A DNA stretch of 15,902 bases from a virus: the IMG/VR virus record IMGVR_UViG_3300045988_117751, positions 1 to 15,902 of that record, one strand, 5' to 3'. Position numbers and translations under genes: made by a program. Below are positions 92-9,193 of this stretch, piece after piece. The stretch's first letter is position 1. Each line of letters starts with the position of its first letter. The notes under the pieces were generated by a model. It made no database searches. It saw only the letters and a program-made list of their open reading frames with translations, and was not told the origin of the DNA.

Positions 92-1714
92 TTATTCTTC
101 TATATTATCATTACCAAATACACCATGAGCATAAATAGCAGTAATGTCTGTAAGGTCTGTTTTAACTCTGTATAATATTTTTCCTTCGTTAGTTATGTAA
201 ACACAACATGGTATTGCTCCTTCAGTAGTTGAAATGGCAATCGCTGACAATGGGTTATTTACTAAAGGAAGATATAAGTTGTTAATGCTACCATAGTTAA
301 CAAGGGTATTTAATGTTGGATTATCAATTTTTAAGCTGATAATATTAGCGAATTTAGTCCTTCTATAGCTAATGTCTTTATTCGATACAGGTGTTTTTAA
401 AGCTGGATAATATTTTCTTGTGTATGTGTTAAAACCTTCAATTACATTATACCAGTTAAGTACGCCGTTTGTTGGCAACCCACCTGCACTACTCCTTGAA
501 TTAATATAAATAAAATCAGTATCTACTACAGGCACAAATGGTAGTATAAATAAGTTCCTATAACCTGTTTCGCCATAATCACTAGCCAGACTCGTGTTAT
601 TAGAATCGGATACACCGGGGTAAATTGATGTTTTTCCGCTATTCTTATTATACTCATAGTCAATAGAAATTATCAGTGTATATTGCCTGTCTTTTTTAAA
701 TCCATTAACAGGTGTACAAGTTGTTGTGCCATTGAAATTTTCTATTGTGTTTTTTGTGCTTGCGCCTATATTATTAACAGGTAACGTATAATTGCTATAC
801 GGTAATCTAGCCGCCATCACCAACTGATTGAAATAAGGTGTTAAATATTTGGCTATTTTGGGAACTGTTCCAACCTCCCAAACAGTGTAAACCGCATCGT
901 TATTAACACAACTGAAAACAGCACTGTGATTGATGCCAAAAAACGAGGGGTCTGTTCCGCCACCTTCAAGGTTGTAGAAAAGTATATCACCGGTTTTTAA
1001 TTCGTTTACGCTTTTAGGCTTAAAGCAATATCCTCTATCATACAGCCACTGACATAACTGACCAGAAAATTTCCATGTTGTATCATCAGCATCGTCGCCG
1101 CTTGAATAGAAATCTTTAATATCCTGATTTTCAAAAAGCAAATTATTCATGATATTATTTTTTCCGTTATATTTTGAGTTGTTAAATGTTACCCCTAATA
1201 GTAAAAGCATAACAAAAGTAGAACAGTTAATTTCATATTTGTTATCAACTTTTTCAACATTTTTTCGGAAAGCGGCATGTTTGTATCCATATACGAAATC
1301 ATTTCTGTTAACATAAGTGTTTGCGGTATTAGCTATTTCAGTGTAAGCCTGTGTCGAATTTGTAATTTTCGGTTGCATAGGTAAAAGAGCTGTTACTATA
1401 GCGGTTGTTAAACTGCCATCTTTAAGCATCGCATCCAGTTTGTTGTTAATTTCATTCTGAACATCCAGATTGTTAAAGTAATTATTAACATATCCTTGTA
1501 ATTCAACATATGCCTTATGCAAATTAGTTACATCGCCGTGTAAAGTGTCGACATCCTCCATAGTTTTATTAAGATAATCAACAACCTTACAAAGCAACTC
1601 ATAATAACTTAAACTATCATCATACACCAATGGCAACACTTTCTGACACCAATATCTAAATGGCTGTAGCTCTCTATACTCACCTAAAGGTGGCGTAAAA
1701 TTAGCATTACTCAT
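92..1714 (-). CDS. Tail appendage / receptor-binding protein (gp12 position) with an internal NlpC/P60-like cysteine peptidase domain
   Basis: ATG at 1714 with RBS AAAGGGGA 8 nt upstream. It is the last gene of the structural operon, after the lower collar, as gp12 is in phi29. The N-terminal segment FTPPLGEYRELQPFRYWCQKVLPLVYDDSLSYYELL looks like the conserved anchor of Firmicutes phage tail fibres. Residues ~135-305 carry INCSTFV (Cys), GDILFY and INHSAVF (His), typical of NlpC/P60. The C-terminal ~230 aa are unrecognised and presumably bind the receptor. Confidence 0.7.
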   Translation of the reverse strand: MSNANFTPPLGEYRELQPFRYWCQKVLPLVYDDSLSYYELLCKVVDYLNKTMEDVDTLHGDVTNLHKAYVELQGYVNNYFNNLDVQNEINNKLDAMLKDGSLTTAIVTALLPMQPKITNSTQAYTEIANTANTYVNRNDFVYGYKHAAFRKNVEKVDNKYEINCSTFVMLLLLGVTFNNSKYNGKNNIMNNLLFENQDIKDFYSSGDDADDTTWKFSGQLCQWLYDRGYCFKPKSVNELKTGDILFYNLEGGGTDPSFFGINHSAVFSCVNNDAVYTVWEVGTVPKIAKYLTPYFNQLVMAARLPYSNYTLPVNNIGASTKNTIENFNGTTTCTPVNGFKKDRQYTLIISIDYEYNKNSGKTSIYPGVSDSNNTSLASDYGETGYRNLFILPFVPVVDTDFIYINSRSSAGGLPTNGVLNWYNVIEGFNTYTRKYYPALKTPVSNKDISYRRTKFANIISLKIDNPTLNTLVNYGSINNLYLPLVNNPLSAIAISTTEGAIPCCVYITNEGKILYRVKTDLTDITAIYAHGVFGNDNIEE

Positions 1715-7217: not shown

Positions 7218-7388
7218 TTATTTACCCCCATTCTCATAATCTTCGTCAATGATTTTCCAGTTCTTCGGGTTAAGAAATTCGCTAATTCGCATGCTTAATG
7301 GCGCATCGGGTGAAACATATACGCCACTTGAATCAATTTTCACTCTAAAACCAGAAACGTGTTCATATGTCCCATAAACAAACATCAT
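7218..7388 (-). CDS. Hypothetical 56-aa protein
   Basis: Below the ORF-track size cut-off. GGAGG (7396-7400) lies 7 nt before ATGATG at 7388. Translates to MMFVYGTYEHVSGFRVKIDSSGVYVSPDAPLSMRISEFLNPKNWKIIDEDYENGGK. It exactly fills the gap between the hydrolase stop and the scaffold start. Confidence 0.55.
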   Translation of the reverse strand: MMFVYGTYEHVSGFRVKIDSSGVYVSPDAPLSMRISEFLNPKNWKIIDEDYENGGK

Positions 7389-7400
7389 AATGTAACCTCC

Positions 7401-8519
7401 TTATAAATGATAATTAATCTTCATCCAGACAGGCATTTTCTTAATCGGGTCTCTTGTATTTGTTCCGGGCTGTTTGGGGTCGATAGTTTTTAAGATATCA
7501 AACCACTTCCTTGCATACTCAGCTCTTTCCATGTGTACGCTTGCCGGTCTTTCGTAACAAGCTTGCCAAACAAGTGCAAGGAAACCGGGGTCTTGTGTAC
7601 TCTTAATGAAGTCATTCCACGACATACGATATTGAGCTGGTGCCAAACTTTCGTACCACTGTGGGTCTATACCCCAGTCTTTAACGCCAGTCGATTGCTC
7701 AAATTCTGCTTCGATAGCATCACACTGATAGTTTCCGTTTGCGTAATCAGCCCAGTCATATCCTAGAGCGTTAAAAACTTCATGCAACGGGTTTAAACCT
7801 GAGTATCTATCTACGGGAGTCCACTGGACTAAACCAGTTCCTTTTCCCTCATCTGGATAGGGGACATGCTGTTCAAGCAACGCTGGGTTGAAACGAGACT
7901 CTTCCATAATGTTTCCGCATAGTGCGGCAATGGATTGCAATGACCAACCCTTAAAATAAAAGTAAGAATATATACAGGCGGCATTGTTTTTCTGCTTATC
8001 GCCATAGTCCTCAAAGTATTCGGAGTTACTACCAATTACCCATGTGTAACCTACTTCTCCACTTGCACCTTCACCATATCGCCATATCCGTGGAAAGGTT
8101 CTTCTGTATGTAGCATCGCCACTACTTGAACCAATTGAAACTTGGTTTGCTAAAGGTGCGTTGTCCGTGTGTGCACCCATAAAAATAGCAGAGCCTTCAC
8201 CACCCTCGTAACACATTTCTGTGTGCGTACTCGATACACCTATATCCCCGGGCTTGATGATTCCTGATGCTGTAACATCTGTGAACCCTAAAGATTGTAA
8301 TACACCTTCCATTGTGTAAGTTGTAAAGGCGTTGCTATTTGGAGCGTAACCGGGTGTTTCCCAGCCTCCAGCTAATAAGGCGTAATTGATAAAAGAGCTA
8401 CAGTCATAGTATGTGATACCGTTAACTGTTTGCTGGTTTCTGTATGCCTGAGAATATCCCACGTTAGGTAAATTACAACATGTAACAGCCCATGTATAAG
8501 CGACATTAATATCTGGCAT
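7401..8519 (-). CDS. Bifunctional peptidoglycan hydrolase: N-terminal CHAP/NlpC-P60-type cysteine peptidase plus C-terminal phage tail lysozyme-like domain (gp13-like and/or endolysin)
   Basis: N-terminal domain: YYDCSSFINYAL (Cys40) and PGDIGVSSTHTEMCY (His99). C-terminal domain: SIAALCGNIMEESRFNP and GTGLVQWT, typical of the lysozyme-like fold of phi29 gp13-type tail lysins. ATG at 8519 with RBS GGGGGTGA. Confidence 0.85.
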   Translation of the reverse strand: MPDINVAYTWAVTCCNLPNVGYSQAYRNQQTVNGITYYDCSSFINYALLAGGWETPGYAPNSNAFTTYTMEGVLQSLGFTDVTASGIIKPGDIGVSSTHTEMCYEGGEGSAIFMGAHTDNAPLANQVSIGSSSGDATYRRTFPRIWRYGEGASGEVGYTWVIGSNSEYFEDYGDKQKNNAACIYSYFYFKGWSLQSIAALCGNIMEESRFNPALLEQHVPYPDEGKGTGLVQWTPVDRYSGLNPLHEVFNALGYDWADYANGNYQCDAIEAEFEQSTGVKDWGIDPQWYESLAPAQYRMSWNDFIKSTQDPGFLALVWQACYERPASVHMERAEYARKWFDILKTIDPKQPGTNTRDPIKKMPVWMKINYHL

Positions 8520-8520
8520 A

Positions 8521-8781
8521 TCATGTCACCCCCAGAAGTTTCCAGCAAGCTTGACCAAAAGCTGAATCGTTCTTACCGTTTGTGCCACACTCAAAACCAT
8601 ATGCTCTCATACTCGTCTGAAAAGAATTGATAGCGTGCACGGTATTTGTGCGACAATCGCCGTCAATCGTAAGTGGCTTTCCGTCTGCACCTACATAATG
8701 TAGCATGGATAACACGGTTTGAAGAACTACAACATCTGTGCCAGTTGACCCATAACAAACGGTTGAAAAACTATGTGCCAT
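8521..8781 (-). CDS. Stand-alone peptidoglycan-binding domain protein (PG_binding_1-like)
   Basis: 86 aa. GSTGTDVVVLQTVLSMLHYV..DGDCRTNTVHAINSFQ fits the G-x-G-x-V-x-x-LQ...DG-x-F/C-G-x-x-T-x-x-A-V/I-x-x-FQ pattern. Its ATG directly abuts the holin stop (TAAATG). Its own stop is 1 nt before the hydrolase ATG. Confidence 0.7.
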   Translation of the reverse strand: MAHSFSTVCYGSTGTDVVVLQTVLSMLHYVGADGKPLTIDGDCRTNTVHAINSFQTSMRAYGFECGTNGKNDSAFGQACWKLLGVT

Positions 8782-9135
8782 TTACTCACCTTCTTTCGTA
8801 ATGGAGCTGATGTGAAACAGCGACATAAGTTTTTCCGGTAAAAGGTCTGGATTGATTTTGCTGATATTCTCCAAAATAGAGACCAGCTCTGTAGTGCAAG
8901 CATAGAATACTATAATAGGAAGAATTAAAAAATCCAAGTGTATTCCAGCGATAGCACCGTAGTTGTCAATAATCCATGCCAGAAAATAACAGAACATGAA
9001 GCCAACTTTTTTAAAGAGACCGTCCCTTAATTTAGAGGACTGGATTTCCTTGTTTTTAATAGCTGAAATAAATCCTGTGCACAAGTCTAGTGCGTTGAAT
9101 CCAAGAGCTACTAAAATCGGAGTAAGCTGATTCAT
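8782..9135 (-). CDS. Holin (phage_holin_4_1 / TcdE-like, three predicted TM helices)
   Basis: 117 aa with three hydrophobic segments and the family-typical LDLxTGxxxAxKNKEIxSxKxRxGxxKK motif. ATG at 9135 with RBS GGGGGT. It is the first gene after the promoter. Confidence 0.85.
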   Translation of the reverse strand: MNQLTPILVALGFNALDLCTGFISAIKNKEIQSSKLRDGLFKKVGFMFCYFLAWIIDNYGAIAGIHLDFLILPIIVFYACTTELVSILENISKINPDLLPEKLMSLFHISSITKEGE

Positions 9136-9164: not shown

Positions 9165-9193
9165 ATTATAAAATAAGGGTTGACAAAAGTCAA
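9165..9193 (-). promoter_or_regulatory. Near-consensus sigma-70-type promoter for the lysis and structural operon
   Basis: On the minus strand: TTGACT (9193-9188), a 17-nt spacer, then TATAAT (9170-9165). It lies about 30 nt upstream of the holin ATG. Confidence 0.7.

What the first reader, a model, noticed from the sequence alone, without database searches (positions are those of the whole stretch)
7401..8781. Split cell-wall module: stand-alone PG-binding protein next to a CHAP plus tail-lysozyme hydrolase, with no separate endolysin visible
After the holin come an 86-aa protein that is essentially a single PG_binding_1-like domain and a 372-aa enzyme. The enzyme combines a Cys/His peptidase domain with the lysozyme-like fold characteristic of phi29 gp13-type virion-associated tail lysins. 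The genes are coupled (TGA-T-ATG, with the hydrolase in the +1 frame and its own GGGGGTGA RBS). I recognise no other catalytic lysis enzyme apart from the peptidase domain inside the appendage. Three readings are possible. The binding subunit and enzyme may form a heteromeric endolysin, as known for multimeric endolysins such as PlyC. One enzyme may serve both entry and exit. Or the pair may be a recent split or fusion intermediate.
Basis: partly seen in the sequence, partly recalled or inferred. Interest (0 to 1): 0.6.

Follow-up and report, generated by a model that had tools for sequence, protein, structure and literature searches.

The report
Orphan wall-binding gene beside tail lysin
A 15.9-kb gut phage has no self-contained endolysin: behind its holin sits a free-standing 86-residue cell-wall-binding protein, tightly coupled to a tail-type double hydrolase, and this pairing is kept under strong selection in roughly a hundred related phage contigs, which points to a lysis enzyme split over two genes.

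Summary
The window is a complete phi29-like phage genome.

- **Gene order:** a promoter, a holin, an 86-aa protein and a 372-aa enzyme open the late operon.
- **86-aa protein:** a genuine PG_binding_1 three-helix domain. Evidence is the family-wide HMM hits, an AF2 model at pLDDT 94.8 and a fold match to the SleB wall-binding domain.
- **372-aa enzyme:** a papain-like Cys/His peptidase or amidase, then a phi29 gp13-type lysozyme, then a conserved C-terminal peptide. It has no binding domain.
- **Rest of the genome:** no other Pfam-recognisable wall hydrolase.

Comparison changes the reading. The position behind the holin holds ordinary endolysins in close relatives. In about 59 contigs it holds only this orphan binding protein (dN/dS about 0.09). 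In 36 further contigs, including cultured Clostridium and Hungatella phages, it holds only an unrelated CW_7 domain. The two states exclude each other and switch within shallow clades. Gene boundaries also vary: [PGB][Pept-Lyz], [PGB-Pept][Lyz] and [PGB][Pept][Lyz].

So this is neither a recent split nor a remnant. The best reading is a two-gene lysin. The tail-type enzyme supplies catalysis, probably at both entry and exit, and the orphan protein supplies wall targeting in trans. A physical complex is not shown. The resemblance to PlyC is in logic only, not homology.

The parts
9165..9193 (-). Late-operon promoter-like site TTGACT-17-TATAAT just upstream of the holin
   Evidence: Consensus scan, 11 of 12 matches. 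No minus-strand terminator-like site lies between it and the structural genes.
8782..9135 (-). Holin, 117 aa (Phage_holin_4_1)
   Evidence: PF05105 E 2.7e-18 and phrog_199 holin. Homologous holins precede the same position in relatives at 58-99% identity.
8521..8781 (-). Free-standing 86-aa PG_binding_1 wall-binding protein in the position where relatives keep their endolysin
   Evidence: Family-wide PG_binding_1 hits. AF2 pLDDT 94.8. Fold matches to PG-binding domains. 37 clusters of 64-91 aa, mostly ~85-aa, stand-alone homologues. dN/dS median 0.09.
8517..8533 (-). Coupling junction GGGGGTGA-CA-TGA-T-ATG: a Shine-Dalgarno-like run inside the end of the 86-aa gene, its stop, one base, then the start of the enzyme gene
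   Evidence: Read directly from the sequence. In 56 of 59 related loci the two genes are separated by -8 to +4 nt.
8064..8519 (-). Enzyme residues 1-152: papain-like Cys/His peptidase or amidase domain (Amidase_5/ELLD type), with Cys40 at 8400-8402 and His99 at 8223-8225
   Evidence: Amidase_5 25.8 bits. Cys40, His99 and His117 are invariant in alignment A2. The orthologous domain in L137 folds like Lys2972, CwlO, LysIME-EF1 and CHAPK.
7485..7997 (-). Enzyme residues 175-345: phi29 gp13-type tail lysozyme domain, with Glu207 at 7899-7901
   Evidence: PF18013 83.9 bits. PDB 3csr/3csq gp13 at 8e-15, with Glu207 aligned to gp13 residue 45. tblastn to phi29 gene 13 gives 30% identity, E 7e-10.
7404..7484 (-). 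Enzyme residues 346-372: linker plus conserved basic and aromatic C-terminal peptide KKMPVWMKINYHL
   Evidence: M362, P363 and W365 are invariant in A2. The same MP[IV]WM tail ends the CHAP-Lyz and Lyz-only proteins of relatives. It is absent from the homologue encoded between the tail-knob and portal genes in L024.

Best explanation
Shown. The phage opens its late operon with holin, an 86-aa free-standing PG_binding_1 protein, and a 372-aa enzyme without a binding domain. The enzyme consists of a papain-like Cys/His peptidase or amidase, a gp13-type lysozyme and a conserved C-terminal peptide. The 86-aa gene occupies the position behind the holin that in close relatives holds a complete endolysin (catalytic domain plus binding domain). 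It is a functional, strongly constrained gene. Its pairing with a gp13-type enzyme is conserved over deep divergence and across different partner N-domains.

Inferred. The phage has given up a self-contained endolysin. The enzyme is the tail lysin by homology and by its structural gene context in a sister group. Surplus copies of it provide the catalytic activity for host lysis once the holin opens the membrane. The orphan binding protein is made in step with it through translational coupling and supplies wall targeting in trans, as a detachable subunit. A detachable binding module would let one catalytic gene serve both in the virion (without a binding domain) and at lysis (with one), saving about 0.5 kb in a 16-kb genome.

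Not shown. There is no evidence here that the two proteins bind each other, at what stoichiometry, or that either is in the virion.
For: (1) Domain identities.
(2) Complete genome with no other Pfam wall hydrolase.
(3) Content of the position behind the holin in relatives. ELLD/Amidase_5-type catalytic domain with a C-terminal extension that gave no Pfam hit (L003, L044). Amidase_3 alone or with a sub-threshold C-terminal hit (L004). ELLD plus two CW_7 repeats (L011, L062). Amidase_3 plus SPOR (L061, L230). NlpC/P60 with a PG_binding_1-like C-terminus seen by eye only (L020)..
(4) The orphan PGB gene sits directly upstream of a gp13-type enzyme in 59 of 63 IMG/VR loci that encode a relative of it, and in 38 of 39 loci of the CHAP-Lyz clade. 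Gene junctions are -8 to +4 nt.
(5) Convergence. An unrelated single CW_7 domain of 52-65 aa (one ORF called at 82 aa; PF08230 4e-16) sits in the same position in 36 contigs and in the cultured phages CH17P1 and CS229P1-3. The complete CS229P2 genome shows no other hydrolase.
(6) The orphan and the full endolysin never occur together. They switch within a shallow clade: L011 and L012 nest inside the PGB-only clade with supports of 99/100 and 95/91, and the label needs 3-5 changes on the tree.
(7) Purifying selection: median dN/dS 0.09 for PGB over 418 pairs, 0.012-0.058 for the window against near relatives at dS 0.35-0.64, and 0.108 for CW_7-only.
(8) Rosetta-stone variants: [PGB-Pept 237-259 aa][Lyz 248-252 aa] in L135 and L137, and [PGB 84][Pept 176][Lyz 226] in L111 and L113.
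(9) The same PGB subtype is the binding domain of ordinary endolysins, such as GH25+PGB at 57% identity and ELLD+PGB.
(10) Tail-lysin identity. The lysozyme domain is homologous to phi29 gp13. A 45%-identical homologue is encoded between the tail-knob and portal genes. gp13-like lysozyme-peptidases are virion proteins by mass spectrometry in C. perfringens podoviruses (PMC3362512).
Against: There is no direct evidence of a complex. AF2 of the natural PGB-Pept fusion gives two well-folded domains, a weak linker and pTM of only 0.71, so there is no confident fixed interface even in cis. The enzyme has no recognisable docking domain. Its conserved C-terminal peptide also occurs in relatives that have a full endolysin, so it is not specific to the orphan partner. 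Binding-domain-free lysins can be active alone, so the enzyme might not need the 86-aa protein. Virion location is inferred only. Most contigs come from one metagenome project (IMG 3300045988), so the counts are not independent.
Confidence: 0.5

Rival explanations
1. The tail-type enzyme alone performs lysis, and the orphan binding protein works independently of it, without forming a complex. It might coat wall debris or neighbouring cells after the burst, for example limiting adsorption to debris or damage to future hosts. It might instead perturb host autolysin control at the wall.
For: No predicted fixed interface between the PGB and Pept domains (pTM 0.71). No docking domain is recognisable in the enzyme. 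Two unrelated folds (PG_binding_1 and CW_7) fill the position, which is easier to explain if only wall binding is selected and not a specific protein-protein interface.
Against: Strict adjacency and tight coupling to the enzyme gene persist over deep divergence. Natural fusions of the PGB to the peptidase domain exist. The orphan and complete endolysins exclude each other in the same position, which points to the orphan taking part in the endolysin function.
Confidence: 0.22
2. The 86-aa protein is a virion accessory that sits with the tail lysin at the tail tip and helps entry by holding the tip on the wall. Exit is then handled by the enzyme alone or by host autolysins.
For: The gene lies in the late operon next to a gp13-type enzyme and ahead of the scaffold, capsid and tail genes. 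The pairing is conserved.
Against: The gene sits in the holin-proximal position, where relatives carry standard endolysins that are not virion parts. Where the Pept-Lyz homologue is embedded among the tail genes (L024 group), no small binding-protein gene accompanies it in the ORF list. No virion data exist.
Confidence: 0.1
3. A true endolysin exists elsewhere but is unrecognised, for example the Cys/His-motif domain inside the 540-aa appendage or one of the small orphan ORFs. The 86-aa protein would then be its binding partner or unrelated to lysis.
For: The appendage centre (window 725-1357, minus strand) has invariant Cys and His motifs across 20 homologues. The best profile hit in the PDB, though not significant, is an NlpC/P60 dipeptidyl-peptidase VI (E 0.49). 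Several early ORFs have no annotation.
Against: The appendage domain is part of a structural protein, and homology to NlpC/P60 is not significant (hhalign probability 1-7%). The central domain has few relatives in the 5.8-billion-protein database (5 clusters), and the complete CW_7-only genome CS229P2 shows no other hydrolase. The unannotated ORFs lie in the early and replication region.
Confidence: 0.1
4. The 86-aa gene is a recent split product, or a decaying remnant of an endolysin that lost its catalytic domain and has no function.
For: Its nearest fused homologues are C-terminal binding domains of endolysins, so it probably did originate from one.
Against: dN/dS of 0.012-0.058 at dS 0.35-0.64 against near relatives and a median of 0.09 overall. 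An intact ORF is present in about 59 contigs down to 41% identity. The junctions are compact with no leftover catalytic sequence. The independent CW_7-only case is under the same constraint.
Confidence: 0.03

Closest known systems
PlyC of streptococcal phage C1 (PlyCB wall-binding subunits plus PlyCA catalytic subunit, encoded by separate genes; named from established knowledge and the review PMC6116005)
   Same: The phage is phi29-like. The binding subunit is a small protein encoded upstream of a catalytic subunit that carries two hydrolase domains and no binding domain of its own.
   Different: There is no homology. The 86-aa protein has a PG_binding_1 three-helix fold, not the PlyCB fold. 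No docking domain is evident in the enzyme. The catalytic partner here is a homologue of the virion tail lysin gp13. No complex or stoichiometry is known.
Single-gene multimeric endolysins with a free binding domain from an internal start (Lys170, CTP1L/CD27L, LysIME-EF1, phi2638A; PMC4777826, PMC6116005, bioRxiv 10.1101/2024.01.16.575832)
   Same: A free wall-binding module is made alongside the catalytic chain and is thought to act with it. The peptidase fold here resembles the LysIME-EF1 CHAP domain.
   Different: In those enzymes the free module is an in-frame product of the same gene and associates with the identical binding domain of the full-length chain. Here it is a separate gene and the enzyme has no binding domain.
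phi29 gp13 tail-associated peptidoglycan hydrolase (PDB 3csq/3csr)
   Same: The lysozyme domains are homologous, with the catalytic Glu conserved. The design is bifunctional, with two hydrolase domains and no binding domain.
   Different: The domain order and the partner differ. gp13 is lysozyme followed by an M23 peptidase. This enzyme is a Cys/His papain-like domain followed by the lysozyme and a conserved C-terminal peptide. phi29 also has a separate endolysin gp15, and this phage does not.
Ordinary modular endolysins with a PG_binding_1 domain (phiKZ gp144, Burkholderia AP3 endolysin, and the GH25+PGB or ELLD+PGB proteins found here)
   Same: The binding fold is the same. The same PGB subtype occurs at 44-57% identity.
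   Different: In those proteins the binding and catalytic domains are in one chain. Here the binding domain stands alone.
Virion-borne lytic enzymes that also cause host lysis (PRD1 P15, phi6 P5; from general knowledge, not checked here)
   Same: One enzyme is proposed to serve both entry and exit.
   Different: Those are membrane-containing phages of Gram-negative hosts, and no separate binding subunit is involved.

Membership tests
PG_binding_1 (PF01471) | Match to the family HMM | tested here: met
   The window protein alone scores 20.6 bits, below the cut-off of 23. All 27 aligned homologues match at E below 0.01, best 3.2e-9, and many database relatives carry a precomputed PF01471 annotation.
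PG_binding_1 (PF01471) | Three-helix-bundle fold shared with solved PG-binding domains | tested here: met
   AF2 pLDDT 94.8 with helices at 15-26, 45-60 and 77-82. Foldseek top hits are 6tci (TM 0.80, rmsd 2.1), 5tv7, 9h68, 1lbu, 5nm7 and 3bkh.
PG_binding_1 (PF01471) | Actual binding to peptidoglycan | not testable with these tools
   Needs a binding assay with purified protein and sacculi.
phi29 gp13-type tail lysozyme (PF18013) | HMM match and homology to the gp13 N-domain, with the catalytic Glu | tested here: met
   83.9 bits against a cut-off of 28.2. 3csr at 8e-15, with Glu207 aligned to gp13 residue 45. Glu207 and Ser208 are invariant in A2.
phi29 gp13-type tail lysozyme (PF18013) | gp13 architecture: lysozyme followed by an M23 endopeptidase | tested here: not met
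   There is no M23 hit. An N-terminal Amidase_5/ELLD-type Cys/His domain is present instead.
phi29 gp13-type tail lysozyme (PF18013) | Location at the tail tip of the virion | not testable with these tools
   Supported only indirectly, by a homologue encoded between the tail-knob and portal genes and by virion mass spectrometry of a gp13-like protein in other phages (PMC3362512).
CHAP (PF05257) | Match to the CHAP HMM | tested here: not met
   The window enzyme has no CHAP hit; it matches Amidase_5, and its orthologues match Amidase_5 and ELLD. CHAP proper occurs in the partner enzymes of other clades (L114, L136, L148).
Papain-like NlpC/P60-CHAP superfamily | Fold, and conserved Cys and His | tested here: met
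   Cys40 and His99 are invariant. The model of the orthologous domain in L137 matches 8tw1, CwlO, 6ist and CHAPK. The window's own enzyme was not modelled.
PlyC-type two-gene endolysin | Binding and catalytic subunits encoded by separate neighbouring genes | tested here: met
PlyC-type two-gene endolysin | Binding subunit homologous to PlyCB | tested here: not met
   No sequence match in the PDB, and the fold is PG_binding_1.
PlyC-type two-gene endolysin | Stable heteromeric holoenzyme | not testable with these tools
   No multimer prediction was available. The cis fusion gives pTM 0.71, which is uninformative.
Internal-start multimeric endolysins (Lys170/CTP1L type) | Free binding domain produced in frame from the endolysin gene, pairing with the same domain in the full-length chain | tested here: not met
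   The 86-aa protein is a separate gene in another frame, and the enzyme has no binding domain.
Canonical modular endolysin | Catalytic and binding domains in one polypeptide encoded next to the holin | tested here: not met
   Not met in the window. Met in relatives at the same position.

The most novel reading that the evidence does not exclude
Small phi29-like phages of gut Clostridia have repeatedly lost the catalytic half of their endolysin. They keep only an orphan wall-binding protein: PG_binding_1 here, CW_7 in cultured Clostridium and Hungatella phages, and possibly SH3b according to an earlier scan note. This orphan would dock non-covalently onto surplus tail lysin, giving a detachable-targeting, two-gene lysin. 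The same catalytic protein would then work without a binding domain in the virion at entry and with one at exit.
Probability: 0.35. Interest if true: 0.8.

Novelty: new variant of a known kind. Interest (0 to 1): 0.62.

Why it matters
If correct, this shows how the smallest tailed phages economise on lysis genes: one catalytic gene serves two steps of the life cycle, and targeting comes from a separate small protein. It would add a second, widespread and independently evolved class of multi-gene lysins alongside PlyC. It would also give a natural system for studying what a wall-binding domain contributes when it is not tethered to the enzyme. Finally, it offers compact binding modules and binding-domain-free double hydrolases aimed at gut Clostridia for lysin engineering. 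The hypothesis is directly testable, because phages with the CW_7 version (CS229P1-3 on Clostridium symbiosum, CH17P1 on Hungatella) are in culture.

Tried and rejected
- **PlyCB homology.** Rejected: no PDB sequence hit, and the fold is PG_binding_1.
- **Decaying remnant or recent split.** Rejected by the dN/dS values and the depth of the family.
- **Holin-PGB read-through fusion.** In the window the two ORFs are in the same frame, separated by a single TAA. In relatives they overlap out of frame (L010, L014-L018). Rejected.
- **Frameshift fusion of the 86-aa and 372-aa ORFs.** There is no slippery motif at ACA-TGA-T-ATG. Relatives have junctions from -8 to +4 nt in different frames. Rejected as a conserved mechanism.
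- **Internal start separating the Pept and Lyz domains.** No Met lies near the domain border (residues 150-175). Not supported.
- **Fixed PGB-Pept interface.** AF2 of the natural fusion L137 gave good domains but pTM 0.71, so the result is uninformative.
- **Appendage Cys/His domain as an NlpC/P60 hydrolase.** No Pfam or PHROG hit. The PDB profile search gave E 0.49. hhalign probability was 1-7%. Inconclusive.
- **86-aa protein in cultured phages.** tblastn against the INPHARED phage records found nothing, so no cultured phage in that collection has the PGB-only version.
- **Literature.** Searches for an orphan binding-domain gene next to a tail lysin found nothing specific.
- Those rows were dropped.
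Full report
**1. What is in the window**

The window is an entire virus record of 15,902 bp with inverted terminal repeats, and CheckV rates it complete. It encodes a phi29-type gene set:
- protein-primed family-B DNA polymerase, gp16-type packaging ATPase and phi29-type SSB;
- Phi29_MCP capsid protein, gp9-type tail knob, connector and lower collar;
- a 540-aa appendage.

The genes of the finding lie on the minus strand. A near-consensus promoter-like site, TTGACT-17-TATAAT, lies at 9193-9165. It is followed by:
- the holin at 8782-9135 (PF05105, E 2.7e-18);
- the 86-aa gene at 8521-8781;
- the 372-aa gene at 7401-8519;
- a conserved 56-aa ORF, then the scaffold-position gene, capsid and tail genes.

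The holin stop TAA abuts the ATG of the 86-aa gene.

**2. The 86-aa protein is a real PG_binding_1 domain**

Taken alone it misses Pfam's cut-off (20.6 against 23 bits), and it has no sequence match in the PDB. The wider evidence settles the assignment:
- It belongs to a family of 37 clusters of 64-91 aa (mostly ~85-aa) stand-alone proteins, found on contigs up to about 18 kb long.
- Every one of the 27 aligned members hits PG_binding_1, the best at 3.2e-9.
- AF2 with that alignment gives a three-helix bundle at pLDDT 94.8 and pTM 0.87.
- Foldseek's top hits are all wall-binding PG_binding_1 domains: the SleB N-domain 6tci (TM 0.80, rmsd 2.1 Å), the C. difficile PG-binding protein 5tv7, SleC, the Zn DD-peptidase 1lbu, and the AP3 and phiKZ gp144 endolysins.

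It is not PlyCB-like. There is no hydrophobic N-terminus, so by eye the protein should stay in the cytoplasm until the holin acts.

**3. The 372-aa protein**

- **Residues 20-102** match Amidase_5 (25.8 bits). Cys40, His99 and His117 are invariant among homologues.
- **Fold of this domain.** The orthologous domain in a relative, L137, was modelled at pLDDT 93.6. It resembles the S. thermophilus phage endolysin Lys2972, the NlpC/P60 endopeptidase CwlO, LysIME-EF1 and CHAPK. Whether the domain acts as an amidase or an endopeptidase is open.
- **Residues 179-343** match Phage_lysozyme2 (83.9 bits). They align to the phi29 gp13 lysozyme domain (3csr, 8e-15), with Glu207 on gp13 residue 45.
- **The last 27 residues** carry a conserved basic and aromatic peptide, KKMPVWMKINYHL. 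Its MP[IV]WM core ends every related enzyme that is encoded next to a holin.
- **No binding domain** is present.

**4. No other endolysin**

hmmscan of the 20 largest ORFs (56 aa or longer) finds no further wall hydrolase. The one open candidate is the centre of the appendage. It has invariant Cys and His motifs in 20 homologues, but it has no Pfam or PHROG hit. The only PDB hint is non-significant (NlpC/P60 dipeptidyl-peptidase VI, E 0.49), and hhalign probability against the Pept domain is 1-7%. In any case this domain is part of a structural protein.

**5. The comparative picture**

IMG/VR holds at least 546 relatives of the enzyme.

*5a. The position behind the holin is the endolysin position.* In the group with the window's gene order (ATPase on the opposite strand, then holin, X, enzyme, scaffold, capsid), X is a standard modular endolysin in many genomes:
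- ELLD/Amidase_5-type catalytic domain with a C-terminal extension that gave no Pfam hit (MT835814, L044);
- Amidase_3 with a sub-threshold C-terminal hit (MT835854);
- ELLD plus two CW_7 repeats (L011, L012, L062 and others);
- Amidase_3 plus SPOR (L061);
- NlpC/P60 with a C-terminus that looks like PG_binding_1 by eye (L020).

In phi29 terms, X is gene 15 and the enzyme is gene 13.

*5b. In the window's clade, X is only the binding domain.* A scan with the 86-aa family found 63 loci. In 59 of them an 81-94 aa PGB ORF (called longer, up to 128 aa, where an upstream in-frame start exists) lies directly upstream of a gp13-type enzyme. Gene junctions are -8 to +4 nt in 56 of the 59.

*5c. The partner enzyme varies.* It is the Amidase_5-type Pept-Lyz in one set and CHAP-Lyz in another (L114-L133, L136-L148). 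A separate scan of the CHAP-Lyz clade found the PGB orphan in 38 of 39 loci. The one exception, L230, has a complete Amidase_3+SPOR endolysin instead.

*5d. The two states exclude each other and switch.* On a maximum-likelihood tree of the enzyme, L011 and L012 (full endolysin) nest inside the PGB-only clade with supports of 99/100 and 95/91. The PGB-only label needs 3-5 changes on the tree. No contig with a full endolysin in this position appears among the contigs that carry the orphan.

**6. Independent replicate**

In the cultured Hungatella phage CH17P1 and the Clostridium symbiosum phages CS229P1-3, X is a 59-60 aa protein made of a single CW_7 repeat (PF08230, 4e-16 and 4.5e-12). It is again followed, within 1-4 nt, by a 336-339 aa Pept-Lyz enzyme. 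Thirty-six IMG/VR contigs share this arrangement. The complete CS229P2 genome shows no other Pfam hydrolase. These phages form plaques, so a phi29-like phage with only an orphan binding domain and the Pept-Lyz enzyme completes a lytic cycle.

**7. The orphan is functional**

Nei-Gojobori dN/dS for the PGB gene has a median of 0.09 over 418 pairs. For the window against its nearest relatives it is 0.012-0.058 at dS 0.35-0.64. For the CW_7-only gene the median is 0.108. This rules out a decaying remnant or a recent accident.

**8. Origin and Rosetta-stone variants**

An exhaustive HMMER search shows the same PGB subtype, including its ECGTNGKNDG insertion, as the C-terminal binding domain of ordinary endolysins. 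Examples are GH25+PGB at 57% identity and ELLD+PGB. It also occurs N-terminally, fused to M23, Amidase_3, Amidase_2 or Amidase_5-type domains.

Within the phi29-like contigs the three modules occur with different gene boundaries:
- [PGB][Pept-Lyz] in the window and most relatives;
- [PGB-Pept, 237-259 aa][Lyz, 248-252 aa] in L135 and L137;
- [PGB 84][Pept 176][Lyz 226] in L111 and L113.

The Pept domain in all three carries the same GITYYDCSSF signature. By the Rosetta-stone argument, the fusion of PGB to Pept indicates that the two act together.

**9. Is the enzyme a virion protein?**

This is inferred, not shown. Three lines support it:
- the lysozyme domain is homologous to that of gp13;
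- in a sister group (L024 and relatives, about 45% identity) the Pept-Lyz gene lies between the tail-knob and portal genes;
- relatives with a complete endolysin still keep the enzyme, so there it has a role other than the endolysin's.

gp13-like lysozyme-peptidases are virion components by mass spectrometry in C. perfringens podoviruses, which also have a separate amidase-SH3 endolysin (PMC3362512).

**10. Mechanism proposed, and its limits**

The most economical reading is that catalysis for lysis comes from the tail-type enzyme. The orphan protein is co-translated with it and provides wall targeting in trans.

The weak point is the physical link. AF2 of the natural fusion gives pTM 0.71 with a low-confidence linker. 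No docking domain is apparent. The conserved C-terminal peptide is not specific to enzymes that have an orphan partner. The independent-action and virion-accessory rivals therefore stay open.

**11. Comparison with known systems**

PlyC shares the logic: a podophage, a small binding subunit gene upstream, and a two-domain catalytic subunit. It shares no homology. The Lys170, CTP1L and LysIME-EF1 systems make a free binding domain, but from an internal start, and it pairs with the same domain in the full-length chain (PMC4777826; PMC6116005). I found no paper describing orphan binding-domain genes paired with a tail lysin in phi29-like phages. A recent review of phi29-like phages notes only that wall-degrading domains are hard to assign among tail proteins and endolysins (PMC11476376).

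**12. Verdict**

- Novelty: a new variant of multi-component lysins.
- Caveat: most contigs come from one large metagenome project, so the counts overstate independence.

Noticed in passing
window 7404-7484 (-); also the C-termini of the enzymes in L003, L004, L011, L093, L109, L111, L114, L127, L135-L137 and L148: A conserved C-terminal peptide (K/R)x(K/R)MP[IV]WMx[IL](K/R)Y ends every gp13-type enzyme encoded next to a holin, whatever its N-domain and whether or not an orphan binding protein is present. It often follows a poly-Gly or Pro-rich linker. The homologue encoded between the tail-knob and portal genes (L024 group) lacks it. It may be a docking or membrane-contact peptide.
   Followed up: partly
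window 7218-7388 (-): A 56-aa ORF between the enzyme and the scaffold-position gene (MMFVYGTYEHVSGF...) has a recognisable homologue at the same place in MT835814 (L003 9956-10105). It has no Pfam hit, and its function is unknown.
   Followed up: partly
window 725-1357 (-), inside the 540-aa appendage gene 92-1714: The central domain has invariant YEINCSTF and GI(N/D)HSA motifs with GDILF between them. These are shared with about 23 clusters that have no Pfam annotation, including ~350-aa proteins with a signal-peptide-like N-terminus. It looks NlpC/P60-like by motif, but homology was not significant in any test.
   Followed up: partly
L013/L089 compared with window 7401-8781: There is mosaicism inside the enzyme gene. 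In this relative the orphan PGB is 96-97% identical and the Pept domain 86% identical to the window's, but the lysozyme domain is only 53% identical. This suggests a recombination breakpoint at the Pept/Lyz linker.
   Followed up: no
L024 1303-5949 and about 45 similar loci (L023-L084): A sister group of small phages has a different gene order: scaffold-like, capsid (399 aa), tail knob (458 aa), Pept-Lyz, portal (314 aa). The enzyme is embedded among structural genes, with no holin or binding-protein gene beside it.
   Followed up: partly
window 8779-8784 (-): The holin and the 86-aa ORF are in the same reading frame, separated only by TAA. Read-through would give a membrane-anchored binding protein. 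Relatives have out-of-frame overlaps instead, so this is probably coincidental.
   Followed up: yes
L069 3684-3986, and L070 and L082 at the equivalent place: Some relatives carry an extra 100-142 aa ORF between the holin region and the ELLD+CW_7 endolysin. It was not characterised.
   Followed up: no
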